Shown here piece by piece: positions 13,990-43,943 of a stretch of 64,000 bases of DNA; the stretch's first letter is position 1, and each line of letters begins with the position of its first letter. A program made the position numbers and the translations under genes. The DNA comes from a virus, in IMG/VR virus record IMGVR_UViG_3300036820_000009, positions 1-64,000 of that record, one strand, 5' to 3'. The notes beneath the pieces are model-generated. The model had not been told where the DNA came from, did no database searches, and saw only the letters and a list, made by a program, of their open reading frames with translations.

Positions 13990-14868
13990 ATGAAATATGT
14001 GGTGGTGCTGGGAATCGACGGGCAGCTCGGTACCGCGTTAAAATATTACTGGCCGACCGACCTCATCTTAATCGGATACAATCGCCAACTTGATATCCGC
14101 ACTCCCGAAGCAATCATCAGGGCGCTGGCCGGAACGAAGCCTGACTTGGTGGTGAATTGCGCGGCCTATACCAATGTCGATTTGGCGGAAATCCATGTCG
14201 ACGAAGCCATGGGGGCGAACCATGTCGGCGCGCTCAATGTGGCGCGCGCCTGCGCGATGATGAATATTCCGTTGCTGCATCTCTCGACCGATTATGTTTT
14301 TTCCGGCGAACAGCAGCGACCCTATCGCGAAACCGATTCGACCGATCCGGTCAATATCTATGGCCGCTCCAAGCTGCACGGCGAGCGCGCGATCAGAACG
14401 GAGAAGCGCGGCGGTCATTTTATTTTGCGCGTCTCGTCGATCTATAGCCCGTGGGGCCGGAATTTCGTGAAAACCATGCTGGAGCTGGCCACGCGGCAAA
14501 CGGAAATCCGCATCGTCAACGATCAATACAGCGCGCCGACCGGCGCGCGCGCGATCGCGGAGGCAATCTTCACGCTGGCGCGCCGCGTGGCGGACCGAGG
14601 CACGAAATTCGGCACTTTCCATTTTTGCGGCGGCCGCGGCATGTCGTGGTTCGAATTTGCCCAATATATTTTCGATATCGCGGCCAGCTATGGGCACCGG
14701 CGCCCCACGCTGGTCGGCATCACCAGCGCCGAACGGAACAGCCCGGCGCGGCGGCCGCGCAATTCCTTGCTCAATTGCCTGCGCATCTATGAAACGCACC
14801 ACTTGATCTCGCCGCCGCTGGAAACCGAGCTGGAGCACTGTATTCGGCTGATTGGTCCGCCGACATGA
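13990..14868 (+). CDS. rmlD: dTDP-4-dehydrorhamnose reductase
   Basis: GIDGQLG, NCAAYTNVD, HLSTDYVFSG, YGRSKL.GE, NFVKTML, DQYSAPT. Confidence 0.93.
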   Translation: MKYVVVLGIDGQLGTALKYYWPTDLILIGYNRQLDIRTPEAIIRALAGTKPDLVVNCAAYTNVDLAEIHVDEAMGANHVGALNVARACAMMNIPLLHLSTDYVFSGEQQRPYRETDSTDPVNIYGRSKLHGERAIRTEKRGGHFILRVSSIYSPWGRNFVKTMLELATRQTEIRIVNDQYSAPTGARAIAEAIFTLARRVADRGTKFGTFHFCGGRGMSWFEFAQYIFDIAASYGHRRPTLVGITSAERNSPARRPRNSLLNCLRIYETHHLISPPLETELEHCIRLIGPPT

Positions 14869-15128
14869 GAGTTACCGCCACGCCGACCCGCGCGCAACTT
14901 TTGGGCATGGCACGCATCCGTGTTTATGGTTCAACGGGCTGGTGCAAGTTCCAGGCGCGCGCGGGCGGCGCGATCTCCCGCATGTTTGACCGCATGGCCA
15001 ACACGGGTTGGGTAACCAAACCACCGATAGAGCTGACACCCGTTGGCAATAGGGTGCTCGATGAATGGCTGCTCGATCATTTCGCCTATGGCATTGGCAC
15101 CATGCCCGGTCGGCGGAAACATCGCTAA
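14865..15128 (+). CDS. hypothetical protein
   Basis: ATGA-coupled to rmlD. Confidence 0.5.
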   Translation: MRVTATPTRAQLLGMARIRVYGSTGWCKFQARAGGAISRMFDRMANTGWVTKPPIELTPVGNRVLDEWLLDHFAYGIGTMPGRRKHR

Positions 15129-15157
15129 TCGCTCGCGTTGATAGCGGAGAATTCGTG

Positions 15158-15589
15158 ATGGCAACACCCTTCATCATCGGGCCCAACGAAAGAGCCGCAT
15201 TGGCCGACCTTCGCGACCGAGCCGCGATTCATCCCGTCGATATGCCGACGCTGATGAAGGCGATCAAAACGCCGGCCGGCAAGGCGGCGCACATGGCGCA
15301 GATGAACGAACAGACGGTCGAAATTCCGATTAATTTCCTGGTGACGTTCTCGATCGAAAACGGACATCCATCCGGCACCTGCCGGCACATGAGCATGTCG
15401 AGCGGCGCCATCGGCCGCGCGCCGACGCCGGGAGCGGCCTGGATGGTGGCGGAAGAACTAGGATTTATCGGCAGTCTCGATTATTGCCATGTCTATATCG
15501 AGGATTTGCAGCGCGGCGATGGCCGCCGGCACGCGATCAATATCGTGCAGCCGCTTTCCTTCAGCGTCGCCGCAGCACCCACTCAATAG
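15158..15589 (+). CDS. hypothetical protein
   Basis: GGAG RBS; VTFSIE..G.CRH.SMS motif. Confidence 0.6.
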   Translation: MATPFIIGPNERAALADLRDRAAIHPVDMPTLMKAIKTPAGKAAHMAQMNEQTVEIPINFLVTFSIENGHPSGTCRHMSMSSGAIGRAPTPGAAWMVAEELGFIGSLDYCHVYIEDLQRGDGRRHAINIVQPLSFSVAAAPTQ

Positions 15590-16136
15590 CGCATTCGGCC
15601 GGGCCCATCGTTTGATCGGTATGCAAATGCGGCTGATAGAATTCGCGCTGATATACCAGGCGCTCGGTGGAAGCTATCGACATCGCCCAATTCGCCATGG
15701 TGATCAAATTGATCGATACCGGCGACCAACTCTTCGCTTTATTCATCGTGAAGGTATGTTTGTGCTCGTTGCTGTAGATGCTCGGCCAATGGCCCTGTTC
15801 GTACATGTCTTCGTCGGGCACGGTGATGATCAGATAGCCGCCGGATCGTACCACGCGTATCCAATTGACCAGTGCCTCATAGGGTTGCTCCATATGTTCG
15901 AGGATGTGGCTGGCATGTAAAAACTCGAACGACTGATCAGGCACGCTCGATAGGGTTTGCGCATCGCCTTGCGCCTTGTCGAAATCCTCGATCGATTCGA
16001 TCAGGGGAAAAATTCCCTGATGTTGCCGCAAGCTGTCGCCGCCGGCGCCGACATCGATGCCCTTGCCGACGAAATAGCGCAGCGTGAACGCGGGATCGTA
16101 TATTCGGCGCTTGGCGGCTTTCGATTGTTCGTTCAT
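15561..16136 (-). CDS. class I SAM-dependent methyltransferase
   Basis: [29 protein letters not shown]. Confidence 0.85.
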
Positions 16137-16582
16137 GCCGGAGTTTCCTTGGGCCAGATGGTGGCGAACGTCGCGCCGGAAATCGGCGCCGCGATGGCGC
16201 TGAGGCGCCGCGGCACTTGGCTCCCCATGAACCGCGCGATGATATTGCCGGCGCGATCGTAGGCAGTCATGCTGCGATTGACGCGCTGGATCATGAAGGC
16301 GTCGTGCAGGCGGCTCAGCTCATCGCGGGCATGGAAGAAATAAAACGCATCGGTAATGCCGCGCGTCACGTTGCACAGATCGCAGGCCGCCACCAGATTT
16401 TCCCAATCGTCGCTGCCGCCCAGCGATTTGGGGATAACATGATCGATCGTCGCGCACAGCCGATCGCCGCGCATATCGATCATTTTGACGCCGCAATAGC
16501 AGCAGCGATGATTCTGCGCCTCGCTCAGCACCGCGCGCATTTGCGGCGCCGACAGAACTTGGCCACCGAAAAAATAACTCAT
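16133..16582 (-). CDS. HNH endonuclease
   Basis: [28 protein letters not shown]. Confidence 0.85.
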
Positions 16583-16604: not shown

Positions 16605-16633
16605 TTGACAAATCCACGACGAGTCCCGATGAT
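16605..16633 (+). promoter_or_regulatory. sigma70 promoter of the tRNA operon
   Basis: TTGACA-17-GATGAT preceded by an AT-rich UP-like tract. Confidence 0.6.
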
Positions 16634-16642
16634 CCGCGCGCC

Positions 16643-16777
16643 ATGTTATGTAGATATGATCATTCGCACCAATCACCGACCCGAGCGATAAGTTCGCAAG
16701 GGCGGCTACCCGCGTGCATGTCCATGTCGATCAATCCATGGGAAGCCACACAGGGGCAGGGGTCGAAGTCTATCTGA
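16643..16777 (+). CDS. putative attenuator leader peptide (44 aa)
   Basis: ATG 10 nt after the -10 box; 33 distinct codons; its 3' end overlaps the antiterminator arm. Confidence 0.65.
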   Translation: MLCRYDHSHQSPTRAISSQGRLPACMSMSINPWEATQGQGSKSI

Positions 16778-16799
16778 TCGACAGCGAGAGCGATCATAG

Positions 16800-16837
16800 A
16801 AAACCCCTCCCCGGCGAAAGCTAGCGAGGGGTTTTTT
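16800..16837 (+). terminator. intrinsic terminator of the attenuator
   Basis: AAAACCCCTC / GAGGGGTTTT stem, inner GAAA loop, T6 tract; left arm also complementary to 16753-16763. Confidence 0.8.
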
Positions 16838-16850
16838 GTTGGGTTCGATA

Positions 16851-16985
16851 TTGGTTTGTTGAGAGCGAAGGGGTTGGAAGTCACGAGCATGCGAGTCCCG
16901 ATTCGGACTCCCCTCGCCTACCAACGGTTCACCGCGCAAGCGGGCCATACCACCTGACAGCGGCGGGACTTGAAATGTCCTGCGG
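16851..16985 (+). ncRNA. unidentified structured RNA(s)
   Basis: Stems TTGGT/ACCAA, GCGAAGGGG/CCCCTCGC, GAGTCC/GGACTC, CCGC-GCAA-GCGG, GCGGGAC/GTCCTGC. Confidence 0.4.
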
Positions 16986-17030
16986 CCATGGAAAAGCACA
17001 GAGAAAATTATTTAATCGATTTCGATCAAT

Positions 17031-17107
17031 GGGCTCGTAGCTCAAATGGGAGAGCGCCTGTTTTGCACACAGGAGGCAGCGGGTTCGATACCTCGCCGGG
17101 TCCACCA
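17031..17107 (+). tRNA. tRNA-Ala(TGC)
   Basis: Cloverleaf, G3:U70, encoded CCA. Confidence 0.93.
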
Positions 17108-17143
17108 TTTTCATTATGATTCGGGGGCACGCACGGAACGAAT

Positions 17144-17218
17144 GCGGAAGTAGCTCAGGGGTAGAGCGTAACCTTGCCAAGGTTGAGGTCGCGGGTCCGA
17201 CTCCCGTCTTCCGCTCCA
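17144..17218 (+). tRNA. tRNA-Gly(GCC)
   Basis: Loop TTGCCAA, U73, CCA. Confidence 0.9.
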
Positions 17219-17222
17219 ATTC

Positions 17223-17297
17223 GGGCGCTTAGCACAATGGCAGTGCGAGCCGCTCATAACGGTTTGGTCGACGGTTCGATTCCGTCAGCGCCTACCA
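17223..17297 (+). tRNA. tRNA-Ile2/Met(CAT)
   Basis: Loop CTCATAA; acceptor stem resembles the lysidine-type Ile2 tRNA. Confidence 0.85.
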
Positions 17298-17310
17298 ATC
17301 GATCGATTAA

Positions 17311-17387
17311 TGCGGGATGGACTGGAGCGGCGCCAGCACGGTCTCATAAGCCGTCTCACGCGGGTTCAAATCCCGCTCCCGCAACCA
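17311..17387 (+). tRNA. tRNA-Met(CAT)
   Basis: Loop CTCATAA, U1:A72, CCA. Confidence 0.85.
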
Positions 17388-17420
17388 ATCCGGAGGTCCG
17401 TGGTTCGAATCCACGCCGTG

Positions 17421-17497
17421 TGCGGGGTGGAGCAGACCGGTAGCTCGCAAGGCCCATAACCTTGAGGTCGGGGGTTCAAATCCCTCCCCCGCTCCCA
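17421..17497 (+). tRNA. tRNA-fMet-like (CAT)
   Basis: 1:72 mismatch, initiator-like TGCGGGGTGGAGCAG 5' end, loop CCCATAA. Confidence 0.85.
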
Positions 17498-17501
17498 ATT
17501 T

Positions 17502-17578
17502 GCCCAAGTAGCCTACGCGGTTCACGGCGTTGGTCTGAAAAACCAAAGATGTTCGTTCGACTCGAACCTTGGGCACCA
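17502..17578 (+). tRNA. tRNA-Phe(GAA)
   Basis: Loop CTGAAAA, CCA. Confidence 0.88.
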
Positions 17579-17584
17579 GAATTC

Positions 17585-17658
17585 GCGGCATTGAGCGTAT
17601 TGGCGACGCTCCAGCCTTCCAAGCTGGCGAGCCGGTTCGATTCCGGTATGCCGCTCCA
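17585..17658 (+). tRNA. tRNA-Gly(TCC)
   Basis: Loop CTTCCAA, U73. Confidence 0.88.
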
Positions 17659-17673
17659 AATCACACCGGATTT

Positions 17674-17749
17674 TTCGGCGTAGCTCAGCAGGTAGAGCAC
17701 CTGACTGTTAATCAGGGTGTCGCAGGTTCGAGCCCTGCCGCCGGAGCCA
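17674..17749 (+). tRNA. tRNA-Asn(GTT)
   Basis: Loop CTGTTAA, U1:A72, G73. Confidence 0.93.
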
Positions 17750-17759
17750 ATTCCATTTT

Positions 17760-17833
17760 ACCGGGCTAGCACAGTGGAAGTGCCGCGGACTCCAAACCCG
17801 CTAACAGGGGTTCGATTCCTCTGCCCGGTGCCA
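17760..17833 (+). tRNA. tRNA-Trp(CCA)
   Basis: Loop CTCCAAA, G73. Confidence 0.9.
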
Positions 17834-17838
17834 GCTTC

Positions 17839-17911
17839 GCGCCGTAAGCCAAATGGAGAGGCATCGGTCTGCAAAACCGAATAACAGGTTCGATACCTGG
17901 ACGGTGCTCCA
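17839..17911 (+). tRNA. tRNA-Cys(GCA)
   Basis: Loop CTGCAAA, U73. Confidence 0.88.
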
Positions 17912-17919
17912 ATTACCGT

Positions 17920-17996
17920 GGCGATCGTGGCGAAGTGGCTAACGCGGCCGACTGTGAATCGGCTATTCGGGAGTTCGATCCTCTCCGATCGCCCCA
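17920..17996 (+). tRNA. tRNA-His(GTG)
   Basis: Loop CTGTGAA, encoded G-1 and C73. Confidence 0.92.
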
Positions 17997-17998
17997 AT

Positions 17999-18074
17999 GC
18001 CCGGCTAGCTCAGCGGTAGAGCAGCGCTTTTGTAAAGCGAAGGTCGCGGGTTCGATTCCTCGCGCTGGGCTCCA
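17999..18074 (+). tRNA. tRNA-Thr(TGT)
   Basis: Loop TTTGTAA. Confidence 0.9.
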
Positions 18075-18084
18075 ATTCGATCGA

Positions 18085-18159
18085 TGCGGCTTACCTCAAT
18101 GGTAGAGGAACCGGCTCTGACCCGGTCTATCGTGGGTTCGATTCCCCGAGCCGCTGCCA
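18085..18159 (+). tRNA. tRNA-Gln(CTG)
   Basis: Loop CTCTGAC, G73. Confidence 0.87.
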
Positions 18160-18166
18160 GTTTCAT

Positions 18167-18244
18167 AGCGGTGTAGCTCAGTCCGGAAGAGCAGCGCGTT
18201 TTGAGCGCGCGGGTCGCAGGTTCAAATCCGTGCCACCGCTGCCA
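18167..18244 (+). tRNA. tRNA-Gln(TTG)
   Basis: Loop TTTTGAG, G73. Confidence 0.85.
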
Positions 18245-18250
18245 ATTCAT

Positions 18251-18325
18251 CGCGCGTTCGACTTCAGGGAGGTCACCGGTCCCTCAAACCGGTCAGGCAG
18301 GGTTCGATTCCCGCACGCGCGGCCA
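18251..18325 (+). tRNA. tRNA-Glu(CTC)
   Basis: Loop CCCTCAA (C33). Confidence 0.85.
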
Positions 18326-18330
18326 ATTTA

Positions 18331-18415
18331 GCGGACATGGCGAAATCGGTAGACGCGATGGACTTAAAATCCGTTGTCGAAAGGCGTGGGAGTTCGATTC
18401 TCCCTGTCCGCACCA
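18331..18415 (+). tRNA. tRNA-Leu(TAA)
   Basis: Loop CTTAAAA, long variable arm. Confidence 0.93.
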
Positions 18416-18419
18416 AATT

Positions 18420-18504
18420 GCGTAGGTGGCGAAACTGGTAGACGCGCACGACTCAGAATCGTGTGGCTTCGGTCATGAGAGTTCGAATCTCTCCCTGCGC
18501 ACCA
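18420..18504 (+). tRNA. tRNA-Leu(CAG)
   Basis: Loop CTCAGAA, long variable arm. Confidence 0.93.
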
Positions 18505-18511
18505 AACCTTT

Positions 18512-18596
18512 GTCCGCGTGGCGAAACTGGTAGACGCACTGGCTTGAGAGGCCAGCGCCGCAAGGCATGGAAGTTCGAGTCTTCTCGCGGACACCA
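18512..18596 (+). tRNA. tRNA-Leu(GAG)
   Basis: Loop TTGAGAG, long variable arm. Confidence 0.93.
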
Positions 18597-18603
18597 ACCT
18601 CTT

Positions 18604-18695
18604 GGGCGGTTGGCAGAGTGGTCGATTGCACCGCGTTGGAAACGCGGCATGCCCGTTCAAGGGTATCGCTCGTTCAAATCGAGCACCGCCCGCCA
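18604..18695 (+). tRNA. tRNA-Ser(GGA)
   Basis: Loop TTGGAAA, long variable arm, G73. Confidence 0.92.
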
Positions 18696-18714
18696 TTTAT
18701 GATATTATTCGAGG

Positions 18715-19245
18715 ATGACGAGCGGGCGAAGAGAGATTCGTCGCTTCATGGGGCAATTGTTTGCCGCGGCGATCTATTACGACGGCATCGGCGAATCGAA
18801 CCGCGCCGAGGATTGCCGCCAGCATGCGCGCACGGTGCTGATCAAATCGTCGGAATATCGCACGCCATGGGGCAGCATGACGCGCGCGGAGCTGCGCACG
18901 CTGCTGTCCGAAGAACAAAATCATCATTGCTGCTACTGCGGTTGCGAAATGACCGAGCCGCCGACCGATACCAGCTTGTCGCGACCGACCGATATCTCGA
19001 TCGAGCACATCATTCCGATATCGCATCAAGGTCCGCACGATTGGGAAAACACGGCCGCCTGTTGCTTCGCCTGCAATAATTCGCGGCCGTCAAATGTGCC
19101 GGCGCTGATCTATTGGGAATACCGATTGGAGATCCAGCGCGTGCGCCGCAAGCGCCGGCTGCGCGCGTCGCGCGCCAAGTATTACGAGCGGCCACGGCCG
19201 CCGCGCGCGACGATCGAGCTCGCCGGCATGCAGTTTCAGTTGTGA
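18715..19245 (+). CDS. HNH endonuclease inside the tRNA array
   Basis: QNHHCCYC..SIEHIIP..WENTAACCFACN. Confidence 0.85.
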   Translation: MTSGRREIRRFMGQLFAAAIYYDGIGESNRAEDCRQHARTVLIKSSEYRTPWGSMTRAELRTLLSEEQNHHCCYCGCEMTEPPTDTSLSRPTDISIEHIIPISHQGPHDWENTAACCFACNNSRPSNVPALIYWEYRLEIQRVRRKRRLRASRAKYYERPRPPRATIELAGMQFQL

Positions 19246-19333
19246 GGATGGGTGGCAGAGTGGACGATTGCGCCGGCCCCGAAAACCGGAGTGCTTCGCG
19301 GCACCGTGGGTTCAAATCCCACCCCATCCGCCA
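19246..19333 (+). tRNA. tRNA-Ser(CGA)
   Basis: Loop CCCGAAA (C33), long variable arm; starts right after the HNH stop. Confidence 0.9.
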
Positions 19334-19337
19334 AATT

Positions 19338-19426
19338 GGGTGCGTGGCAGAGCGGCTTATCGCAGCGGTCCTGAAAACCGCCGTGCCCCAAGGGCATCGG
19401 GAGTTCGAATCTCCCCGCACCCGCCA
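19338..19426 (+). tRNA. tRNA-Ser(TGA)
   Basis: Loop CCTGAAA (C33), long variable arm. Confidence 0.92.
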
Positions 19427-19440
19427 ATTCGAAGAGATAG

Positions 19441-19541
19441 TCAGGCCGGAGATACCGGGCCTGGCGAGGGACAGGAAGGCGGCGACCGGCCGCGCTCTCC
19501 AAAGGCAAATCCGAGAGCCTTCCTGTCCCGGCGCTTTTTTT
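19441..19541 (+). ncRNA. unidentified structured RNA or terminator-like element
   Basis: 13-bp perfect stem 19468-19480 / 19517-19529, upstream hairpin, T7 tract. Confidence 0.45.
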
Positions 19542-19633
19542 GGTGCCGTGGCAGAGTGGTCGATCGCGGTGGTTTGCTAAACCATTGATCGGCGAAATCC
19601 GATCCGGAGGTTCGAATCCTCCCGGCACCGCCA
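19542..19633 (+). tRNA. tRNA-Ser(GCT)
   Basis: Loop TTGCTAA, long variable arm. Confidence 0.92.
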
Positions 19634-19634
19634 A

Positions 19635-19663
19635 TTTGTACATGTTTGTACATGTTTGTACAT
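19635..19663 (+). repeat. tandem TTTGTACATG x3
   Basis: 10-bp unit containing the TGTACA palindrome. Confidence 0.9.
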
Positions 19664-19676
19664 TGAGGGACTTTCC

Positions 19677-19751
19677 GCCCGGTTGGCGCAGTGGTAGCGC
19701 AGCGCCTTGGTAAGGCACAGGTCATCGGTCCGATTCCGATACCGGGCTCCA
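19677..19751 (+). tRNA. tRNA-Thr(GGT)
   Basis: Loop TTGGTAA. Confidence 0.88.
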
Positions 19752-19758
19752 TATTTTT

Positions 19759-19842
19759 GCATCCGTGGGTGAGCGGCAAAACCGGCAGACTGTAAATCTG
19801 TTGCCTATGGCTACGAAGGTTCGAGTCCTTCCGGATGCACCA
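19759..19842 (+). tRNA. tRNA-Tyr(GTA)
   Basis: Loop CTGTAAA, variable arm. Confidence 0.92.
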
Positions 19843-19880
19843 CTCCGCACCATCATGCACGATGACGCATCATCATCCGT

Positions 19881-19955
19881 GTGCTCGTAGCTCAATGGCA
19901 GAGCAATCGCTCGATAAGCGATCGACGTAAGGTTCGATTCCTTCCGGGCATACCA
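19881..19955 (+). tRNA. tRNA-Ile(GAT)
   Basis: Loop TCGATAA (C33). Confidence 0.88.
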
Positions 19956-19962
19956 ATGATGC

Positions 19963-20040
19963 GCGCGCGTAGCTCAGCCAGGCCAGAGCCGCCGGCCCTT
20001 AACCGGTAGGTCGGGGGTTCGAATCCCTCCGCGCGCACCA
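19963..20040 (+). tRNA. tRNA-Lys(CTT)
   Basis: Loop CCCTTAA (C33). Confidence 0.9.
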
Positions 20041-20050
20041 ATTTGTGTTT

Positions 20051-20124
20051 GCTCCCATCTGTCAGCGGTAGGCAACCGGCTTGTCACGCCGGCAACAGCG
20101 GTTCGATTCCGCTTGGGAGCGCCA
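20051..20124 (+). tRNA. tRNA-Asp(GTC)
   Basis: Loop TTGTCAC, G73. Confidence 0.87.
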
Positions 20125-20201
20125 CGGGGTGTAGCTCAGTCTGGCAGAGCGCCTGCTTTGGGAGCAGGATGCCGGGGGTTCAAATCCTCTCGCCCCGACC
20201 A
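20125..20201 (+). tRNA. tRNA-Pro(TGG)
   Basis: C1:G72, loop TTTGGGA. Confidence 0.93.
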
Positions 20202-20204
20202 ATT

Positions 20205-20280
20205 GCCCGCGCAGCACGATCGGACGTGCATCCGAATCCTAGTCGGAAGGCTGCCAGTTCGAGCCTGGCCGTGGGCGCCA
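20205..20280 (+). tRNA. tRNA-Arg(CCT)
   Basis: Loop ATCCTAG (unusual A32). Confidence 0.83.
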
Positions 20281-20310
20281 TATTTTCCGGAATATATGCC
20301 ACAATTTTCC

Positions 20311-20460
20311 GGCATTAGGTAGCAAGCCTAGCGGCGTCTTGCCACGAAAAAGCCGGGGTTCGTGGCCCCGGCCTTTGTGGTAACCCGCAATGCTTGAACC
20401 ACCCTGCGGAGACTCAACGTACGCCTCAAAATAGTGATTATGGGGAAGAGGGTCAAGGCG
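20311..20460 (+). ncRNA. unidentified structured RNA
   Basis: Nested stems GCATT/AATGC, TAGGT/GCCTA, GCGG/CCGC, TTGCCACGAA/TTTGTGGTAA, GCCGGGG/CCCCGGC. Confidence 0.45.
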
Positions 20461-20468
20461 GCAATTTT

Positions 20469-20546
20469 CGGGGTATAGCTCAGCCTGGCAAGAGTGTTCG
20501 CTTCGGAAGCGAGAGATCGCTGGTTCAAATCCAGCTACCCCGACCA
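20469..20546 (+). tRNA. tRNA-Pro(CGG)
   Basis: C1:G72, loop TTCGGAA. Confidence 0.92.
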
Positions 20547-20585
20547 CTATCGCAATTTTGTTATATGATTTGCGTTATATGATTT

Positions 20586-20660
20586 GCTCCGTTAGCTCAG
20601 CGGCAGAGCGCCTGGCCTACACCCAGGATGTCGGCGGTTCAATTCCGTCACGGAGTACCA
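20586..20660 (+). tRNA. tRNA-Val(TAC)
   Basis: Loop CCTACAC (C33). Confidence 0.9.
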
Positions 20661-20662
20661 GC

Positions 20663-21196
20663 ATGTTGCCATCGATCGTGCCGCTCGCGTGTCTCGATGC
20701 CATGAGCGAGCTGGCGGCCGCGGCGCCGGCGGGCTGCTTTGTCGAGATCGGCGTTTACAAAGGCGGCTCGGCGCTGCGGCTCTACGAGATCGCGCTGCGC
20801 CAGGATCGCACGCTGCATCTCTTCGATACGTTCGCCGGCATGCCGATCGCAACATCGGCCGACCGCCATCAAATCGGCGATTTCGGCGACGTCGACCTGG
20901 ACACGATTCGCGCGGCGCTGCCAGCGGCGATTTTTCATGTCGGCGTCTATCCCGCCACGCATCCGCCCGACCTGCGCGATGTCGCGTTCATTCATTGCGA
21001 CTGCGATCAGTATGACAGCTATCAGGCGGTGATCCGCACGATGTACCCGCTGCTGGTGCCGCATGGCGTGCTGCTATTCGATGATTATTTCGATCTGCCG
21101 GGCGCGCGCCGCGCGATCGAGGAACATTTTCCGGCCAGCCGATTGATACCGACCGCCGGCGGCCGCTGCTACGTCAAAATGCCACGTTCTTACTAG
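20663..21196 (+). CDS. TylF/MycF-family sugar O-methyltransferase
   Basis: VEIGVYKGGS, LFDTFAGMP, FIHCDCDQY, LLFDDY. Confidence 0.85.
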   Translation: MLPSIVPLACLDAMSELAAAAPAGCFVEIGVYKGGSALRLYEIALRQDRTLHLFDTFAGMPIATSADRHQIGDFGDVDLDTIRAALPAAIFHVGVYPATHPPDLRDVAFIHCDCDQYDSYQAVIRTMYPLLVPHGVLLFDDYFDLPGARRAIEEHFPASRLIPTAGGRCYVKMPRSY

Positions 21197-21256
21197 CGGC
21201 CAGGTGGCTGGACCTTCACTCCAGAGACAGGGGTTCGAGTCCCCTACGTGGCACCA
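21181..21256 (+). tRNA. tRNA-Glu(TTC)
   Basis: GCCACGT/ACGTGGC acceptor, loop CCTTCAC; overlaps the TylF stop. Confidence 0.82.
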
Positions 21257-21265
21257 GTTTTCCCT

Positions 21266-21342
21266 GCGCCCTTAGCTCAACTGGATAGAGCGCCTGACTA
21301 CGGATCAGGAGGTTAGGGATTCGAGTTCTCTAGGGCGCGCCA
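21266..21342 (+). tRNA. tRNA-Arg(ACG)
   Basis: Loop CTACGGA. Confidence 0.92.
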
Positions 21343-21346
21343 ATTC

Positions 21347-21424
21347 GCTTCCGTAGCTCAGTCGGATTAGAGCAGCGGCCTTCTAAGCCGCGGGTCGCCG
21401 GTTCGATTCCGGCCGGGAGCACCA
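21347..21424 (+). tRNA. tRNA-Arg(TCT)
   Basis: Loop CTTCTAA. Confidence 0.93.
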
Positions 21425-21425
21425 T

Positions 21426-21502
21426 GCATCCGCAGCTCGACTGGACCGAGCGTCCGCCTCCGAAGCGGAAGATTGCGAGTTCGACTCTCGCCGGGTGCGC
21501 CA
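21426..21502 (+). tRNA. tRNA-Arg(CCG)
   Basis: Loop CTCCGAA. Confidence 0.9.
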
Positions 21503-21509
21503 ATTCGTT

Positions 21510-21594
21510 GCGCGGCTGGCGAAACTGGTAGACGCGCCGGTCTCAAAAACCGGTACCGAAAGGCATGCGGGTTCGATTCCCGCGCTGCGCACCA
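21510..21594 (+). tRNA. tRNA-Leu(CAA)
   Basis: Loop CTCAAAA, long variable arm. Confidence 0.93.
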
Positions 21595-21595
21595 A

Positions 21596-21671
21596 GGGTC
21601 CGTAACTCAGTCGGTAGAGTTCCCGGCTTTTAACCGGGATGTCGCGGGTTCGATCCCCGCCGGGCCTACCA
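21596..21671 (+). tRNA. tRNA-Lys(TTT)
   Basis: Loop CTTTTAA. Confidence 0.92.
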
Positions 21672-21675
21672 AATC

Positions 21676-21749
21676 GCCCTTGTAGCTCAGTGGCAGAGCA
21701 GCGTCCTCGTAAGGCGCCGATTTCGGTTCGATTCCGTGCAAGGGCTCCA
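21676..21749 (+). tRNA. tRNA-Thr(CGT)
   Basis: Loop CTCGTAA. Confidence 0.88.
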
Positions 21750-21797
21750 CTTGACTTCGATCGCCGGCTCGCGCATATAGCTCGCCAACAAGCATTT

Positions 21798-21872
21798 GCG
21801 TTGGTAGCTCAGCGGCAGAGCGGTCCACTCTAAAGGGACTGGTCGCAGGTTCGATCCCTGCCCGACGCGCCA
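21798..21872 (+). tRNA. amber suppressor tRNA (CTA)
   Basis: Canonical cloverleaf, stem GTCCA/GGGAC, loop CTCTAAA, short variable loop, G73, CCA. Confidence 0.88.
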
Positions 21873-21887
21873 AATTGAAGGTTCGAC

Positions 21888-22262
21888 ATGCTGTAGATTG
21901 ATTCGACCCTCCGTCTTTACGCTATTCTGCGCGGCGATCTCGACATGCCCGCAGGCAAGGCGGCCAGCCAGGCTGGCCACGCCTTCCTTGGATCCTTCCT
22001 CTCAGCTCCCACCGACGTTTCGCACCGCTATCAGGCCGATGGCGTGGGCACCAAGATCGTGCTCATGGCGCCCGGCGAGCCCGATTTGCGCGCCGCCTAT
22101 GACCAGGCGCGCGAAAGGGGCCTGCCGTGCGTTCTGGTGGCCGACAAAGGGCATGTCATGCCACCGGCGTTCACGGGTGCCCCGATCGTGACGGCCCTCG
22201 GAATCGGGCCCGCGCTGCGGCGCCAGGTGCGCGATATCACCGCGAGGTTTCCCTTGATGTAA
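21888..22262 (+). CDS. pth2: peptidyl-tRNA hydrolase Pth2-like, with in-frame TAG at codon 3
   Basis: RLYAILRGDLDMPAGKAASQAGHA..KIVL..VADKG..TALGIGP; GAAGG-6nt-ATG CTG TAG in frame. Confidence 0.8.
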
Positions 22263-22267
22263 TTCAA

Positions 22268-22348
22268 TCCGGGGTAGCTCAGCGGTCAGAGCGGCTGGCT
22301 TCGCAAGAGGCCGGCAGATCGGAAGTTCGAATCTTCCCCCCGGAGCCA
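22268..22348 (+). ncRNA. tRNA-like RNA without an anticodon loop
   Basis: Normal acceptor (TCCGGGG/CCCCGGA-GCCA), D and T arms; anticodon arm is a 9-bp stem with a GCAA tetraloop. Confidence 0.8.
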
Positions 22349-22369
22349 TCGAATGCAGAGGAAGGATCC

Positions 22370-22975
22370 ATGTCCAGCGTGCTCACCAAGGAACGAAGGC
22401 CGACGCGGACCCTCGTACTCAATGCCGACTACCTGCCGCTCTCGACCTGGCCGCCCTCGCTGATTTCCTGCGAGAACGCGGTGCATGCGCTGTACCGCGA
22501 CCGCGTCACGGTGGTCGATACCTGGCCGGGCTACTTCATGCGGTCGCCCTCGGTATCGATCCCGGTGCCGCGGATCGTGGCGCTGCGCCATTACGCGCCG
22601 GTCGCCGGCGAACCGAAATTCTGCCGGCGATCGGTCTATCTGCGCGATCGCTACCGCTGTCAGTATTGCGGCGCGCCATTCCCGACCGAAGAGCTGACGC
22701 TCGATCATGTGATCCCGCGCGCCAATGGCGGCAAAACGGTGTGGGAGAACATCCTGGCGTGCTGCGTCGGCTGCAATTCCAAGAAGGGCCACAAGCCGGC
22801 TAATTTCAGCGGCCGGCGCGGCGTGGTCGGCGCCGATGGCAGCATGCGGCCGCTGAAACAGCCACGACGGCCGACGCGCGCCGAGCTGCTGCGCGCGGGA
22901 CTTGAATTATTGCCCGCTGACATCAAGAATGATTTTGGCGATTGGCTCTATTGGGACGCTGAATTGCAGCCTTGA
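22370..22975 (+). CDS. HNH endonuclease (McrA-like, LVLNAxY type)
   Basis: TLVLNADYLPL..RDRYRCQYCG..LTLDHVIPRANGG..WENILACCVGCNSKKG. Confidence 0.9.
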   Translation: MSSVLTKERRPTRTLVLNADYLPLSTWPPSLISCENAVHALYRDRVTVVDTWPGYFMRSPSVSIPVPRIVALRHYAPVAGEPKFCRRSVYLRDRYRCQYCGAPFPTEELTLDHVIPRANGGKTVWENILACCVGCNSKKGHKPANFSGRRGVVGADGSMRPLKQPRRPTRAELLRAGLELLPADIKNDFGDWLYWDAELQP

Positions 22976-23610
22976 TGTCGATTCGCGAGCATTTCACCCT
23001 CAGCGGCGCCGCGATCGCCGCGGCGCTGCTCGACGAAGAGCTGGAAGCGGCCGCCGCGCATGCCGCCGACACGATGGCGCAATGCCTGATCGCCGACGGC
23101 AAGATCCTGCTCGCGGGCAATGGCGGCAGCGCCGCCGGCGCGCAGCACATCGCCGGCGAGCTCATGGGCAATCTCAATTTTCCGCGGCCGGCGCTGCCGG
23201 CGATCGCGCTGACGGCCGACAGCGCGGTGCTGACCGCGCTGGCCAATGATTTCGGCTACGATTGGGCGATCGCGCGGCAGATCGAGGCACTCGGCATGAT
23301 CGGCGACATTTTCATCGGGCTATCGACATCGGGCAATTCGTCCAACATCATCCAGGGGCTCAAGCGCGCGCGGCAGCTTGGCTTGACCACCATCGGCATG
23401 ACCGGCCGCAGCGGCGGCGCGATGCTGCCTCTCTGCGATATCTGCCTGCGCGTGCCATCGCACCGCACTTCGCTGATCCAGGAAGTTCATCTTGTCGTCG
23501 CGCATGCCATCTGCGCGCAGGTCGAGGCCGCGCTTTTTAGCCCGGTCGAGAATATAGCCAGCCCTCCGCATGGTGCGGATCCGGCTCGCGGGTCCAGCCC
23601 AGCCGCGTAA
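22972..23610 (+). CDS. gmhA: phosphoheptose isomerase (SIS domain)
   Basis: GNGGSAA.AQHIA.EL, LTALANDFGY, STSGNSSN, IQEVH. Confidence 0.92.
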   Translation: MMSIREHFTLSGAAIAAALLDEELEAAAAHAADTMAQCLIADGKILLAGNGGSAAGAQHIAGELMGNLNFPRPALPAIALTADSAVLTALANDFGYDWAIARQIEALGMIGDIFIGLSTSGNSSNIIQGLKRARQLGLTTIGMTGRSGGAMLPLCDICLRVPSHRTSLIQEVHLVVAHAICAQVEAALFSPVENIASPPHGADPARGSSPAA

Positions 23611-29019: not shown

Positions 29020-29252
29020 GCCGTGCGCCTCGCCACCATCTGCGCGATGAATTCCGCGATCACCGCGTCCGCGATCGTCTCCAGCTCATCCAGTCTCAGG
29101 TCGCGAATTCGTTTTCCCAAGGCGCGCATGTCGGTAAATGTCACGCCAAGTTGGAGCGCGCAATTGCGCCGCAGCCATTTATCGAATTCGTTATCGCCGA
29201 TCCTATCGAGCTGTGCCGGGAGCGGATTTACGGTTGTTTCGGCTGAAGCCAT
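28956..29252 (-). CDS. hypothetical protein
   Basis: Fills the gap in the operon; start uncertain. Confidence 0.45.
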   Translation of the reverse strand: MASAETTVNPLPAQLDRIGDNEFDKWLRRNCALQLGVTFTDMRALGKRIRDLRLDELETIADAVIAEFIAQMVARRTACKAANRELPFRLEDPSAISV

Positions 29253-30040
29253 ACGGGCACGTTGGCGGCTGGTGGCGGCGCCGGACTAGCCGCGGGCGGT
29301 TGTGCCGGCGGCGGCGCTGCCGCGGCGGCATGCTGCATCGGCTGCTGCGCCGCCGGCGCAGCACCATTGGGTGCTGGCGGGCCCCAAGGCGATCCGGCGG
29401 TCGCAACGCCACTGACTGGCGGCGCACCGGCCCATACCGACGCCGGCGCGGCGCCGGCTACCGGCGTTGCGGTCGCCGCATGCGCGATTTCCTCGCCACG
29501 CATGACCGCGAGATATTGCGGATCCTTCGAAGTCAGCACGTCGCCGATGATGTTCTTGTCGGGATAGACGCCGCTGCCGTCGGCTTTTTTCTCGCCGGGC
29601 CGGATATCGATCCGCGCCGCGAATTCAATGCCGTTGAACGCGCGGAACCCATTGATGCGCCGCATCGCGCGCGCCTGCTCGCTGTTGTCGTCGGGATTGA
29701 GGCCCATCGCCGAATCGATGATCGAGCGAAACATCGATTTGCTGATGTTCCAACCGAGACTTTCGCCTTTGTCGCTGACCTTGCCGCCGCTGACGGTGAA
29801 CGAATGCCACAGTTTTCGCTTGGTATATTTGCCGAGAATCACGGTCAGTTCGGTGTCGAGATAATAGACATCGGATGACGTCGACGCCTTCATGATCATG
29901 CCGTCCGCCGGATCGGGACTGGCGTAGTCGCCCGGCCGGATCGCCATTTTGACCTTGACGAAGGTCTTGTCGGGAATGAGCTCGCCGAAGCCCTCGTAGC
30001 CCGGCGTGTCCGCATAATCGAAGAAGCCGCCGACAGACAT
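29228..30040 (-). CDS. phage single-stranded DNA-binding protein (DUF669-like)
   Basis: ELIPDKT..YLDTELTV..GKY.KRK, Pro/Ala tail ending VPVW; follows Sak4. Confidence 0.75.
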   Translation of the reverse strand: MSVGGFFDYADTPGYEGFGELIPDKTFVKVKMAIRPGDYASPDPADGMIMKASTSSDVYYLDTELTVILGKYTKRKLWHSFTVSGGKVSDKGESLGWNISKSMFRSIIDSAMGLNPDDNSEQARAMRRINGFRAFNGIEFAARIDIRPGEKKADGSGVYPDKNIIGDVLTSKDPQYLAVMRGEEIAHAATATPVAGAAPASVWAGAPPVSGVATAGSPWGPPAPNGAAPAAQQPMQHAAAAAPPPAQPPAASPAPPPAANVPVWLQPKQP

Positions 30041-30049
30041 AGTTCCCTC

Positions 30050-41799: not shown

Positions 41800-41808
41800 G
41801 GCATCTCT

Positions 41809-43940: not shown

Positions 43941-43943
43941 TTT

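What the first reader, a model, noticed from the sequence alone, without database searches (positions are those of the whole stretch)
16605..22975. Integrated translation-rescue operon: sensor, full tRNA set, suppressor, Pth2, mimic and HNH
Seen: 38 sense tRNAs covering all 20 amino acids, all on one strand with encoded CCA and partly grouped by amino acid (3 CAT, Gln-Gln-Glu, 3 Leu, 4 Ser, 3 Arg), bracketed by an attenuator-like leader and the suppressor-pth2-mimic-HNH tail. Established: large phage tRNA arrays, and phage tRNAs offsetting host tRNA destruction, are known. Inference: the parts form one inducible counter-defence circuit; I do not know of a description of this combination.
Basis: inference. 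Interest (0 to 1): 0.75.

Follow-up and report, generated by a model that had tools for sequence, protein, structure and literature searches.

The report
Phage tRNA island with suppressor-gated Pth2
A 94-kb soil phage carries a near-complete tRNA gene set that ends in a small conserved cassette: a stop-codon-reading tRNA, a peptidyl-tRNA hydrolase gene that apparently can only be translated with that tRNA's help, and an anticodon-less tRNA look-alike. The cassette may explain why normal-code phages keep "suppressor" tRNAs.

Summary
There are 40 tRNA-type genes on one strand, all with encoded CCA: 38 sense tRNAs covering 20 amino acids, one CUA tRNA, and one tRNA-shaped RNA whose anticodon loop is a GCAA-capped helix. 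The "one inducible operon with a leader sensor" reading is only partly supported.

The leader is just a promoter-like site, a chance-sized ORF and a terminator. The array holds further terminator-like hairpins, homing-type HNH genes and a sugar-type methyltransferase.

The tail is a real, conserved unit. Full-length Pth2 needs read-through of TAG at codon 3 (SD-ATG-CTG-TAG). I fetched 57 further loci of this Pth2 subfamily from viral contigs (26 clusters at 65% identity with the window). The same early in-frame stop recurs in them. A matching suppressor tRNA lies within 10 kb on the same strand in 41 of the 58, with none mismatched. TGA pairs with UCA and TAA with UUA. Five loci keep the sealed tRNA look-alike on the same strand 3' of Pth2.

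In at least five clusters the order is array, suppressor, Pth2, as here. Elsewhere the cassette mostly stands alone.

This scan has already noted the gated-Pth2 cassette in many other genomes. I found no paper describing it. Nothing here is experimental.

The parts
16605..16633 (+). Sigma-70-like promoter site (TTGACA, 17 nt, GATGAT). It is the only consensus-like + strand site upstream of the array.
   Evidence: 10 of 12 matches. Consensus match only; no expression data.
16643..16777 (+). No support for coding or for a sensing role.
   Evidence: Sequence. No Pfam hit on the enclosing ORF. It lies in a lower-GC intergenic stretch and has no runs of any one codon.
16796..16839 (+). Intrinsic-terminator-like hairpin followed by a U run.
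   Evidence: -24.8 kcal/mol, z -3.66; the only leader-family matches are non-significant and driven by this hairpin.
17031..21749 (+). 38 sense tRNA genes (35 anticodons, all 20 amino acids), all with encoded CCA. Eight carry C33 instead of U33.
18715..19245 (+). HNH endonuclease gene inserted between tRNA-Ser genes. It is a paralogue of the minus-strand HNH at 16133-16582, so homing-type.
   Evidence: PF01844, E 7.7e-7. (37-39% identity between the two, E about 1e-17).
19468..19541 (+). Long hairpin plus U7 (terminator-like) inside the array. It abuts tRNA-Ser(GCU).
   Evidence: z -3.86.
20663..21196 (+). TylF / Methyltransf_24-type SAM methyltransferase inside the array. Probably part of the phage's sugar-modification gene set, not of translation.
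   Evidence: PF05711, E 1.3e-14. Neighbours are RmlD at 13990-14868 and GmhA-like at 22972-23610.
21798..21872 (+). Amber suppressor tRNA: anticodon CUA, loop CUCUAAA, discriminator G73, CCA. A TTGACT-17-CATATA promoter-like site lies at 21751-21779.
   Evidence: 59.2 bits; homologous suppressors beside Pth2 in 31 other loci keep the cloverleaf, with compensatory changes at 19 of 20 pairs.
21877..21896 (+). Gate: SD GAAGG (21877-21881), 6 nt, then ATG CTG TAG (21888-21896), in frame with Pth2.
   Evidence: The same architecture is seen in 44 of 58 loci.
21888..22262 (+). Pth2-family peptidyl-tRNA hydrolase gene. Full-length protein, including strand beta1 (codons 21897-21944), requires read-through of TAG 21894-21896. 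ATT 21897 aligns with the start Met of homologues.
   Evidence: (2zv3, E 2.9e-12, residues 2-114). No ATG/GTG/TTG between the TAG and the invariant internal Met at 21945.
22268..22348 (+). tRNA-shaped RNA without an anticodon loop. It has a 7-bp acceptor stem (U1-A72, G73, CCA), D and T arms, and a 9-bp helix capped by GCAA. It starts 5 nt after the Pth2 stop and ends 21 nt before the HNH ATG.
   Evidence: RF00005, 55 bits with a 9-nt insert in the loop; cloverleaf MFE -41.1 kcal/mol, 70% of the ensemble. The same kind lies 3' of Pth2 in L059, L060, L091 and L081.
22370..22975 (+). HNH-domain protein of a family that recurs downstream of Pth2 in other phages. It is distinct from the two homing-type HNHs of the island.
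   Evidence: HNH_5, E 2.8e-17. (36-39% identity, E about 1e-38, to Atu_ph07 and Phosso proteins about 2.4 kb downstream of their Pth2). (same strand, +2.4 to +7.3 kb, in 19 loci).

Best explanation
The region is two things joined end to end.

(1) An unusually complete but otherwise ordinary phage tRNA island. It has 38 sense tRNAs for all 20 amino acids in a 94-kb DTR myovirus of a probable alphaproteobacterial host. HNH homing endonucleases have invaded it, and it shares its strand with sugar-modification genes. It most likely keeps phage translation going when host tRNAs are limiting or under attack.

(2) At its 3' end, a conserved cassette: a suppressor tRNA, a Pth2-family hydrolase gene, and a tRNA-shaped RNA with a sealed anticodon arm, often with a particular HNH protein nearby. 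The Pth2 frame opens with SD-ATG, one to nine sense codons and an in-frame stop.

How the cassette works. Ribosomes start at ATG 21888 and meet UAG at codon 3. They make full-length Pth2 only when the phage's own tRNA-CUA outcompetes release factor 1. Pth2 output is therefore tied to the amount of working suppressor tRNA relative to termination activity.

What is shown and what is inferred. The gate, its conservation, and the match between stop codon and anticodon are shown by sequence and comparison. The purpose is inferred: Pth2 supply is matched to read-through or translation stress so that peptidyl-tRNAs are recycled. The sealed tRNA look-alike most likely serves as a non-decoding tRNA-shaped element. 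It could be an RNase P/Z processing point at the end of the Pth2 message, or a decoy or partner RNA. Its job is unknown.

The upstream leader is not shown to be a sensor, and the whole locus is not shown to be one operon.
For: Genome context:
- 93,725-bp virus record with direct terminal repeats and a tail sheath gene.
- Primase-helicase relatives lie in Bradyrhizobium, Reyranella and Rhodospirillales.

Array.

Gate in the window:
- SD-ATG-CTG-TAG is in frame with Pth2.
- The residues between the TAG and Met-21945 align with strand beta1 of solved Pth2 (2zv3 residues 2-13) and with homologue N-termini of the form MDxTLRLYAI.
- There is no canonical start in between.
- This is the only such TAG site in the genome.

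Comparative evidence from 57 loci of this subfamily, taken from 67 viral-contig loci fetched with a Pth2 alignment, plus the window (58 in all):
- The first upstream in-frame stop is TAG in 50 of 58. The background is 23% of 1300 long ORFs in the same loci, p 3.6e-24.
- An ATG lies 1-9 codons before the stop in 44 of 58; the background for an ATG with an SD in that position is 15 of 1300.
- A suppressor tRNA is on the same strand within 10 kb in 41 loci, often as the only tRNA there. The stop matches the anticodon in 41 of 41.
- The exceptions covary: TGA with UCA in L057 and L061; TAA with UUA in L096. In Atu_ph07 the TGA gate is matched by a UCA tRNA elsewhere in the genome, verified at L123 (PMC6102473). 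Phosso has TAG with CUA.
- There are 26 clusters at 65% identity, with three switches of stop type inside clusters.
- Ten distant Pth2 homologues in viral contigs (L107-L116) have ordinary starts and no suppressor within 10 kb, and Myrna Pth2 has an ordinary ATG start and no tRNA within 9 kb; Fisher p 1.4e-6.
- The suppressors are real tRNAs kept by compensatory changes.

Sealed look-alike: all five copies lie on the same strand 3' of Pth2 and keep a 7-10 bp helix with different sequences.

Array, then suppressor, then Pth2 also occurs in L066, L078, L106, L074 and L063/L065.
Against: - Nothing is experimental. It is unknown whether the tRNA-CUA is expressed or charged, and with which amino acid.
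- TAG ends 22 of 90 phage genes of 100 aa or more. Strong suppression would therefore extend many phage and host proteins, so read-through must be partial or timed.
- ATT 21897 sits where homologues have their start Met. Weak AUU initiation, or termination-reinitiation, could give some Pth2 without the suppressor.
- About 14 of the 58 loci lack a clear SD-ATG mini-ORF. In 20 there is a possible alternative start.
- The NCBIfam equivalog cut-offs for Pth2 are not reached (66 against 126 bits). Hydrolase activity is assumed from family membership.
- Many loci come from related jumbo phages, so locus counts overstate the number of independent cases.
- The physiological purpose is inference, and so is any link to host defence.
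Confidence: 0.75

Rival explanations
1. The leader, array, suppressor, Pth2, mimic and HNH form one co-transcribed, inducible counter-defence operon. Its leader peptide and terminator sense translation stalling and switch the array on.
For: - All parts are co-directional.
- The only consensus-like promoter upstream of the array (16605) is followed by a strong terminator. Transcription from it must therefore read through.
- The order array, suppressor, Pth2 recurs in at least five Pth2 clusters.
- Eight tRNAs carry C33, in line with the published idea of nuclease-evading loop variants (PMC10264068).
Against: - No leader family matches: His_leader scores 16.6 bits against a cut-off of 49.
- The 44-codon ORF has no regulatory codon runs and no homologue.
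- Extra terminator-like hairpins lie inside the array, and a promoter-like site sits before the suppressor.
- Homing HNH genes, a sugar-type methyltransferase and GmhA share the block.
- In most related loci the cassette has no array within 10 kb.
Confidence: 0.1
2. Chance neighbours and decay. Pth2 has simply lost its start codon or gained a nonsense mutation. The tRNA look-alike is a dying tRNA gene. The CUA tRNA is an unrelated passenger of the array.
For: - Phage tRNA clusters do hold pseudogenes; XacN1 has one (PMC5852040).
- ATT 21897 looks like a mutated ATG.
Against: - The early in-frame stop is conserved in 26 clusters and matches the suppressor anticodon in 41 of 41 loci.
- Look-alikes keep perfect helices through compensatory change in several lineages.
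- The Pth2 core stays open, and its conserved residues are kept.
Confidence: 0.04
3. General stop-codon recoding. The phage reads TAG as an amino acid in many genes (as in code 15), and the Pth2 TAG is just one of them.
For: - A suppressor tRNA is present.
- TAG-ending genes are more often in frame with a long downstream ORF: 8 of 22 against 9 of 68, p 0.026.
Against: - TAG ends 24% of genes.
- In three TAG junctions tested, the domain hits stop at the TAG and the downstream part is a separate family.
- Only one gate-like TAG site exists in the genome.
- Making TAG a sense codon raises ORF cover less than making TGA a sense codon does.
Confidence: 0.03
4. uORF coupling without read-through. 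The 2-codon mini-ORF ends and ribosomes re-initiate at the next codon. The suppressor tRNA plays no part in Pth2 expression.
For: - The codon after the stop is ATT here and ATT, ATC, GTT or GTG in many loci, some of which can initiate weakly.
- Stop and restart are adjacent.
Against: - In many loci the next codon cannot initiate: GAA, GAT, AAC, ACT, GCT.
- Re-initiation does not predict that the stop codon type should follow the anticodon of the linked tRNA, yet it does in 41 of 41 loci, with three switches inside clusters.
Confidence: 0.05

Closest known systems
tRNA-rich phages with a suppressor tRNA and Pth: Xanthomonas phage XacN1 (PMC5852040), Agrobacterium phage Atu_ph07 (PMC6102473)
   Same: They have tRNA sets for all or nearly all amino acids, an amber (XacN1) or opal (Atu_ph07) suppressor tRNA, a tRNA pseudogene and a peptidyl-tRNA hydrolase in one genome. 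Atu_ph07 Pth2 is 46% identical to the window's.
   Different: Those papers list the genes separately and found no target for the suppressor. Here, and in Atu_ph07 itself on re-reading, the Pth2 gene carries the matching early stop. Here the parts are contiguous in a 94-kb genome; in the jumbo phages Pth2 lies 75-240 kb from the main arrays.
Stop-codon recoding in phages with phage-encoded suppressor tRNAs (bioRxiv 10.1101/2021.08.26.457843; crAss-like and Lak phages, code 15)
   Same: A phage-encoded suppressor tRNA makes in-frame stops readable and can thereby time or gate translation of phage genes.
   Different: Recoded phages carry in-frame stops in many, mostly late, genes. Here TAG remains an ordinary stop, and the only gate-like site is codon 3 of one small gene.
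prfB (RF2) autoregulation through an early in-frame UGA (textbook knowledge, not tested here)
   Same: An early in-frame stop in a translation-factor gene makes its own synthesis depend on the competition between termination and an alternative decoding event.
   Different: prfB uses a +1 frameshift and senses its own product. Here the alternative event is read-through by a dedicated, virus-encoded tRNA, and the product is a hydrolase rather than the release factor.
PTH2 of jumbo phages, proposed to rescue ribosomes jammed by cleaved tRNAs (PMC7824862); phage tRNAs that evade or replace targets of tRNA-cutting defences (PMC10264068, PMC11464382, PMC11555353)
   Same: Phage Pth2 and phage tRNAs are seen as means to keep translation running under host attack. 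The C33 loop variants in 8 of 38 tRNAs here fit the 'loop mutation' idea.
   Different: None of these describes the suppressor-Pth2 linkage, the gate or the sealed tRNA look-alike. No defence system is identified for this phage.
tRNA-like non-decoding RNAs: the tmRNA tRNA-like domain and bacterial Y RNA (YrlA) tRNA-like modules (PMC4201824)
   Same: They have a tRNA-shaped acceptor/T-arm body without a working anticodon.
   Different: The look-alike here is a full cloverleaf of tRNA size with CCA. Only the anticodon loop is sealed by a GNRA tetraloop. There is no Rfam match other than tRNA, no Ro60 gene nearby, and no tag reading frame.

Membership tests
PTH2 peptidyl-tRNA hydrolase (Pfam PF01981) | Profile score above the Pfam gathering cut-off | tested here: met
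   52.1 bits against 23, E 8.8e-14. PDB 2zv3, E 2.9e-12.
PTH2 peptidyl-tRNA hydrolase (Pfam PF01981) | Complete fold, including the N-terminal strand beta1 | tested here: met
   Met only if the frame is read from upstream of Met-21945. Residues LRLYAILRGDLD align with 2zv3 residues 2-13 and with all homologues.
PTH2 peptidyl-tRNA hydrolase (Pfam PF01981) | Conserved Lys of the GK motif and the acidic residue before the conserved His | tested here: met
   G20, K21 and H86 are invariant. D83 is present here, and is D or E in relatives. Which residues are catalytic is recalled from the literature, not tested.
PTH2 peptidyl-tRNA hydrolase (Pfam PF01981) | NCBIfam equivalog score (NF003314, TIGR00283) | tested here: not met
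   66.2 against 126 bits, and 59.9 against 82 bits. It is a diverged subfamily.
PTH2 peptidyl-tRNA hydrolase (Pfam PF01981) | Hydrolysis of peptidyl-tRNA | not testable with these tools
   Needs an enzyme assay.
Canonical tRNA (Rfam RF00005) | Cloverleaf score above the gathering cut-off | tested here: met
   37 of 38 sense tRNAs, the CUA tRNA (59.2 bits) and the look-alike (55 bits) pass. 17311-17387 scores 27.3 against 29.
Canonical tRNA (Rfam RF00005) | 7-nt anticodon loop with an anticodon (applied to 22268-22348) | tested here: not met
   The arm is a 9-bp helix closed by GCAA. It is tRNA-shaped but cannot decode.
Stop-codon-recoded phage (code 15 type) | In-frame TAG in many genes, with TAG not used as a terminator | tested here: not met
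   22 of 90 genes end in TAG. Domain hits end at TAG in 3 of 3 junctions. One gate-like site only.
Suppressor-gated Pth2 cassette (recurrent in this scan; no publication found) | SD-ATG, 1-9 sense codons, an in-frame stop, then the Pth2 core with no other start before beta1 | tested here: met
Suppressor-gated Pth2 cassette (recurrent in this scan; no publication found) | Cognate suppressor tRNA on the same strand nearby | tested here: met
   The tRNA-CUA ends 15 nt before the ATG. The stop matches the anticodon in 41 of 41 loci.
Leader-peptide transcription attenuator (His/Trp/Thr type) | Leader ORF enriched in regulatory codons, plus alternative terminator and antiterminator folds | tested here: not met
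   There are no codon runs (sequence). His_leader scores 16.6 against 49 bits. Only the terminator is clear. Alternative folds could not be tested by covariation because no relatives of the leader exist.
HNH homing endonuclease | HNH motif | tested here: met
   16133-16582(-), 18715-19245 and 22370-22975 all hit PF01844 / PF14279.
HNH homing endonuclease | Presence/absence polymorphism at the insertion site | tested here: inconclusive
   No close relatives were found. The source-sample contigs were swamped by other organisms' tRNAs.

The most novel reading that the evidence does not exclude
The cassette is a self-contained read-through sensor. Pth2 output reports the contest between the phage's suppressor tRNA and host release factor. 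The phage thereby raises peptidyl-tRNA recycling when termination or tRNA supply is disturbed, for example by tRNA- or ribosome-targeting host defences. The anticodon-less tRNA look-alike is a working partner: a decoy or regulator for Pth2, or for a tRNA-binding nuclease. Where the cassette closes a full tRNA array, as here, the whole locus acts as one co-transcribed translation-maintenance unit.
Probability: 0.2. Interest if true: 0.85.

Novelty: new variant of a known kind. Interest (0 to 1): 0.7.

Why it matters
Normal-code phages have long been known to carry suppressor tRNAs with no known target. The XacN1 authors searched for one and found none. A conserved, early, anticodon-matched stop in the phage's own Pth2 gene gives those tRNAs a concrete target. 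It also turns the question into a simple reporter experiment, and cultured phages (Atu_ph07, Phosso) carry the same layout.

The finding also points to a natural single-gene translational switch built from a tRNA and a stop codon. And it points to a class of selected, non-decoding tRNA-shaped RNAs that travel with Pth2.

For this window in particular, it shows which parts of an impressive-looking 'operon' are a real unit (the tail) and which are ordinary or unsupported (the array as such, and the leader).

Tried and rejected
- Close relatives of the phage: none in the phage collection by DNA, and none in viral contigs with single-protein queries for Pth2 or primase-helicase. Synteny of the leader and of the array start could therefore not be compared.
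I replaced it with an alignment-based scan of viral contigs.
- Expression: no RNA holder was listed for the stretch; the only holder is the soil metagenome it was probably assembled from.
- Laying that run's contigs was dominated by other organisms' tRNAs. It gave no usable information on HNH presence/absence or on the gate codon.
- TAG recoding: three TAG-separated in-frame gene pairs (40606-43242, 43248-44570, 29228-31006) were read through with X. Domain hits do not span the junctions, so this was rejected.
- The ORF-cover test under changed codes is not discriminating in GC-rich DNA.
- Leader: the Rfam sensitive scan gave only non-significant hits. The stretch 16851-16930, proposed elsewhere as a structured RNA, folds no better than shuffles (z -0.29).
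- A covariance model of the look-alike was not built, because the MAFFT alignment (A3) misaligned the helices. I used a custom structural scan instead. With relaxed settings that scan produces noise, so only hits with tRNA D/T arms and CCA were counted.
- The amino-acid identity of the suppressor could not be assigned. Its nearest paralogue in the array is tRNA-Asn at 75%, and its G1-C72, C2-G71 and G73 do not single out one synthetase.
- The weak PtuB/retron HNH hit of the mid-array HNH (25 bits against 150) is motif-level only.

Full report
**What the window is.** The window is the first 64 kb of a 93,725-bp virus record with direct terminal repeats. It is about 60% G+C and encodes a tail sheath, baseplate proteins and a primase-helicase. 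The closest primase-helicase relatives, about 38% identical, lie in Bradyrhizobium, Reyranella, Rhodospirillales and similar Alphaproteobacteria. The closest phage Pth2 proteins are those of Agrobacterium phage Atu_ph07 and Sinorhizobium phage Phosso. The only sequencing run that holds the DNA is a soil metagenome. No close relative of the phage exists in the collections I could search.

**The observation.** ARAGORN finds 40 tRNA-type genes between 17031 and 22348, all on the + strand.
- All 40 have an encoded CCA.
- Thirty-eight are sense tRNAs with 35 different anticodons, covering all 20 amino acids. One of them (17311-17387) is just under the Rfam cut-off.
- Under strict wobble rules (my reading of the anticodon list, not a tool result) the set leaves CUA uncovered. 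The C-ending codons of the Ala, Val and Pro boxes also depend on U34 chemistry. GCC and GTC are among the phage's commonest codons. So the set looks like 'one of everything', not a codon-usage supplement.
- Eight sense tRNAs have C33 instead of the near-universal U33. In a sample of 70 tRNAs from Myrna, Atu_ph07 and Phosso the figure is 4 (Fisher p 0.024).

**What else sits in the block.**
- Two paralogous HNH genes, 16133-16582 on the minus strand and 18715-19245.
- A TylF-type methyltransferase at 20663-21196.
- Flanking sugar-pathway genes: RmlD at 13990-14868, a GmhA-like isomerase at 22972-23610, and a second methyltransferase-like ORF at 15561-16136.
These are not translation genes.

**The leader.** Upstream of the array lie a TTGACA-17-GATGAT site, a 44-codon ORF and a strong intrinsic terminator.
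- A sensitive Rfam scan gives only non-significant matches, and these rest on the terminator hairpin.
- The ORF has no homologue, no codon runs and no family hit.
- The stretch between the terminator and the first tRNA folds no better than shuffled sequence.
- Inside the array there is a second long hairpin followed by U7 (19468-19541) and a third terminator-like hairpin (20352-20380). A TTGACT-17-CATATA site lies directly before the suppressor tRNA.
- It is fair to say that the only consensus promoter upstream must read through a terminator. Beyond that, the 'sensor' is unsupported, and one single transcript is not shown.

**The tail: the gate in this genome.**
- After the suppressor tRNA (21798-21872) come GAAGG, 6 nt, then ATG CTG TAG ATT and onward, in frame with Pth2.
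- The residues between the TAG and Met-21945 align with the first beta strand of solved Pth2 (2zv3 residues 2-13). They also align with the N-termini of some 38 metagenomic homologues, which read M-D-x-T-L-R-L-Y-A-I.
- Including these residues gives an NCBIfam Pth2 match that spans almost the whole profile, positions 6-117 of 117, at 66 bits. Without them the Pfam match starts only at profile position 13 of 115. The two scores come from different libraries and are not directly comparable.
- There is no ATG, GTG or TTG between the TAG and the invariant structural Met.
- ATT 21897 sits exactly where homologues have their start Met.
Full-length Pth2 therefore needs read-through of the TAG, or else inefficient AUU initiation.

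**The tail: comparative test.** A scan of viral contigs with the Pth2 alignment returned 67 loci with 10-kb flanks. In the 57 of them that belong to the same subfamily, plus the window (58 loci in all):
- The first in-frame stop upstream of the core is TAG in 50 of 58. Among 1300 other long ORFs of the same loci it is TAG in 23% (p 3.6e-24).
- An ATG lies 1-9 codons before that stop in 44 loci, usually behind a good SD. An ATG with an SD in that position precedes only 15 of the 1300 control ORFs.
- 38 loci have no canonical start before beta1.
- A suppressor tRNA lies on the same strand within 10 kb in 41 loci. Very often it is directly before or after Pth2, and often it is the only tRNA in 20 kb.
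- The stop type equals the complement of the suppressor anticodon in 41 of 41.
- The exceptions prove the rule. L057 and L061 have TGA and tRNA-UCA. L096 has TAA and tRNA-UUA.
- Atu_ph07 has M-I-G-E-H-F-TGA and a UCA tRNA elsewhere in its genome, which I verified. Its authors reported that tRNA (PMC6102473). Its relatives, and Phosso (ATG AAG TAT TAG), have TAG and tRNA-CUA.
- The loci fall into 26 clusters at 65% identity, with three switches of stop type inside clusters.
- Ten more distant Pth2 homologues in viral contigs (L107-L116) have ordinary starts and no suppressor within 10 kb; Myrna Pth2 starts at an ordinary ATG and has no tRNA within 9 kb.
- The suppressors themselves are genuine tRNAs: 19 of 20 base pairs show compensated double changes.
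- In the window genome the Pth2 site is the only TAG with this signature. TAG is otherwise an ordinary stop.

**The tRNA look-alike.** The RNA at 22268-22348 folds as a cloverleaf in which the anticodon arm is a 9-bp helix closed by GCAA. The MFE fold accounts for 70% of the ensemble. It begins 5 nt after the Pth2 stop and ends 21 nt before the next ATG.
- The same kind of RNA lies on the same strand 3' of Pth2 in L059 (GUAA), L060 (GAAA), L091 (GCAA) and L081 (GCAA). The first three start within about 100 nt of the Pth2 stop; the L081 copy starts 1373 nt after the Pth2 match begins.
- Each has a fully paired 7-10 bp helix of different sequence.
- In four of the five loci it has a U1-A72 / G73 acceptor stem resembling tRNA-Asn.
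- In L062 a tRNA with the same acceptor stem but a real CUA loop occupies that place.
So this is a selected, non-decoding tRNA-shaped RNA and not a decaying gene. What it does is open. I favour a processing or 3'-end element that any tRNA shape can provide, perhaps doubling as a decoy, but I have no test for this.

**The tail HNH.** The HNH protein at 22370-22975 is unrelated, beyond the motif, to the two homing-type HNHs. It is 36-39% identical over its full length to proteins about 2.4 kb downstream of Pth2 in Atu_ph07 and Phosso. Homologues lie on the same strand, 2.4-7.3 kb downstream of Pth2, in 19 of the 67 loci, which fall in about eight clusters. This makes it a recurrent neighbour. 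Whether that exceeds chance for a common phage family I could not quantify.

**Is the whole thing one unit?**
- In L066, L078, L106, L074 and L063/L065 the cassette also closes or sits in a co-directional tRNA array, with the suppressor as the last tRNA before Pth2. The window's layout is therefore a recurrent one.
- In most loci, however, the cassette stands alone.
- In Myrna, Atu_ph07 and Phosso the main arrays lie 75-240 kb from Pth2.
- Array and cassette are thus separable modules that often dock together.

**What is known.**
- Full tRNA sets with suppressor tRNAs, a tRNA pseudogene and Pth are published for XacN1 and Atu_ph07. The XacN1 authors looked for suppressor targets and found none.
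- PTH2 of jumbo phages was proposed to rescue ribosomes jammed by cleaved tRNAs.
- Phage tRNAs with altered anticodon loops were proposed to evade anticodon nucleases.
- Stop-codon recoding with phage suppressors is known as a genome-wide phenomenon.
- Full-text searches found no paper linking Pth2, a suppressor tRNA and an in-frame stop, and none describing anticodon-less tRNA look-alikes in phages.
- Within this scan the gated-Pth2 cassette and the sealed look-alikes have been noted many times on other DNA. 415 findings in at least 252 genomes hold the search words. One later check priced the bold 'self-contained switch' reading at 20/100 because nothing is experimental. My independent survey agrees with those notes. 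For this window it adds the docking of the cassette onto a complete array in a small genome.

**Verdict.** The suppressor-Pth2-look-alike tail, with its HNH neighbour, is a conserved functional cassette, and the evidence for a stop-codon gate is strong. The array is a rich but ordinary tRNA island. The leader sensor and the single inducible operon are not supported. The counter-defence purpose remains inference.

Noticed in passing
window 17421-21256 (tRNAs 5, 15, 20, 21, 25, 26, 31, 32): Eight sense tRNAs have C33 instead of U33: Met-CAU, Glu-CUC, Ser-CGA, Ser-UGA, Ile-GAU, Lys-CUU, Val-UAC, Glu-UUC. A sample of 70 tRNAs from Myrna, Atu_ph07 and Phosso has 4 (Val-GAC twice, Pro-GGG, Ile-GAU). 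Fisher p 0.024.
   Followed up: partly
window 29228-31006, 40606-43242, 43248-44570 (minus strand) and others: Genes ending in TAG are more often in frame with a long downstream ORF: 8 of 22, against 9 of 68 for TGA/TAA (p 0.026). Domain hits show separate proteins. With a suppressor present, though, some read-through fusions (for example of two baseplate proteins) would be made.
   Followed up: partly
window 19634-19676 and 20547-20585: There are short tandem repeats in array spacers. TTTGTACATG occurs three times, each with a TGTACA palindrome, just before tRNA-Thr(GGU). GTTATATGATTT occurs twice before tRNA-Val. They may be operator or promoter elements.
   Followed up: no
window 13990-16136 and 20663-23610: Sugar-pathway genes bracket and interrupt the tRNA island: RmlD, a GmhA-like isomerase and two SAM methyltransferases. 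The array looks as if it was inserted into a glycan-modification gene set.
   Followed up: partly
L050, L069, L072 (Pth2 core); L092, L093 (leader): Some relatives carry a second in-frame TAG. In three it is at a conserved spot after a D-P dipeptide inside Pth2. In two there are two TAGs in the leader.
   Followed up: no
L052:1052-1126 and L091:10326-10399: A second type of CUA tRNA lies directly 3' of Pth2. It has an unusual T loop (UGCAA instead of UUCRA), an acceptor stem that begins GGGUG in both, and A73. In L091 it is followed by the sealed look-alike.
   Followed up: no
L011/L015, L012, L074, L100; Myrna (W01): There are tRNA genes with 8-nt or 6-nt anticodon loops, some containing CUA. 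They appeared in phage contigs found by the pattern scan or lying beside Pth2.
   Followed up: no
window 22175: One lower-depth contig of the source metagenome shows a 3-nt deletion inside Pth2. This in-frame variant may come from a related strain.
   Followed up: no
L006:8881-9333 (Atu_ph07) and L007 / L126 (Phosso): The deposited Pth2 annotations start at the internal structural Met. The conserved beta1 strand and the gate (TGA in Atu_ph07, TAG in Phosso) lie upstream of the annotated start.
   Followed up: yes
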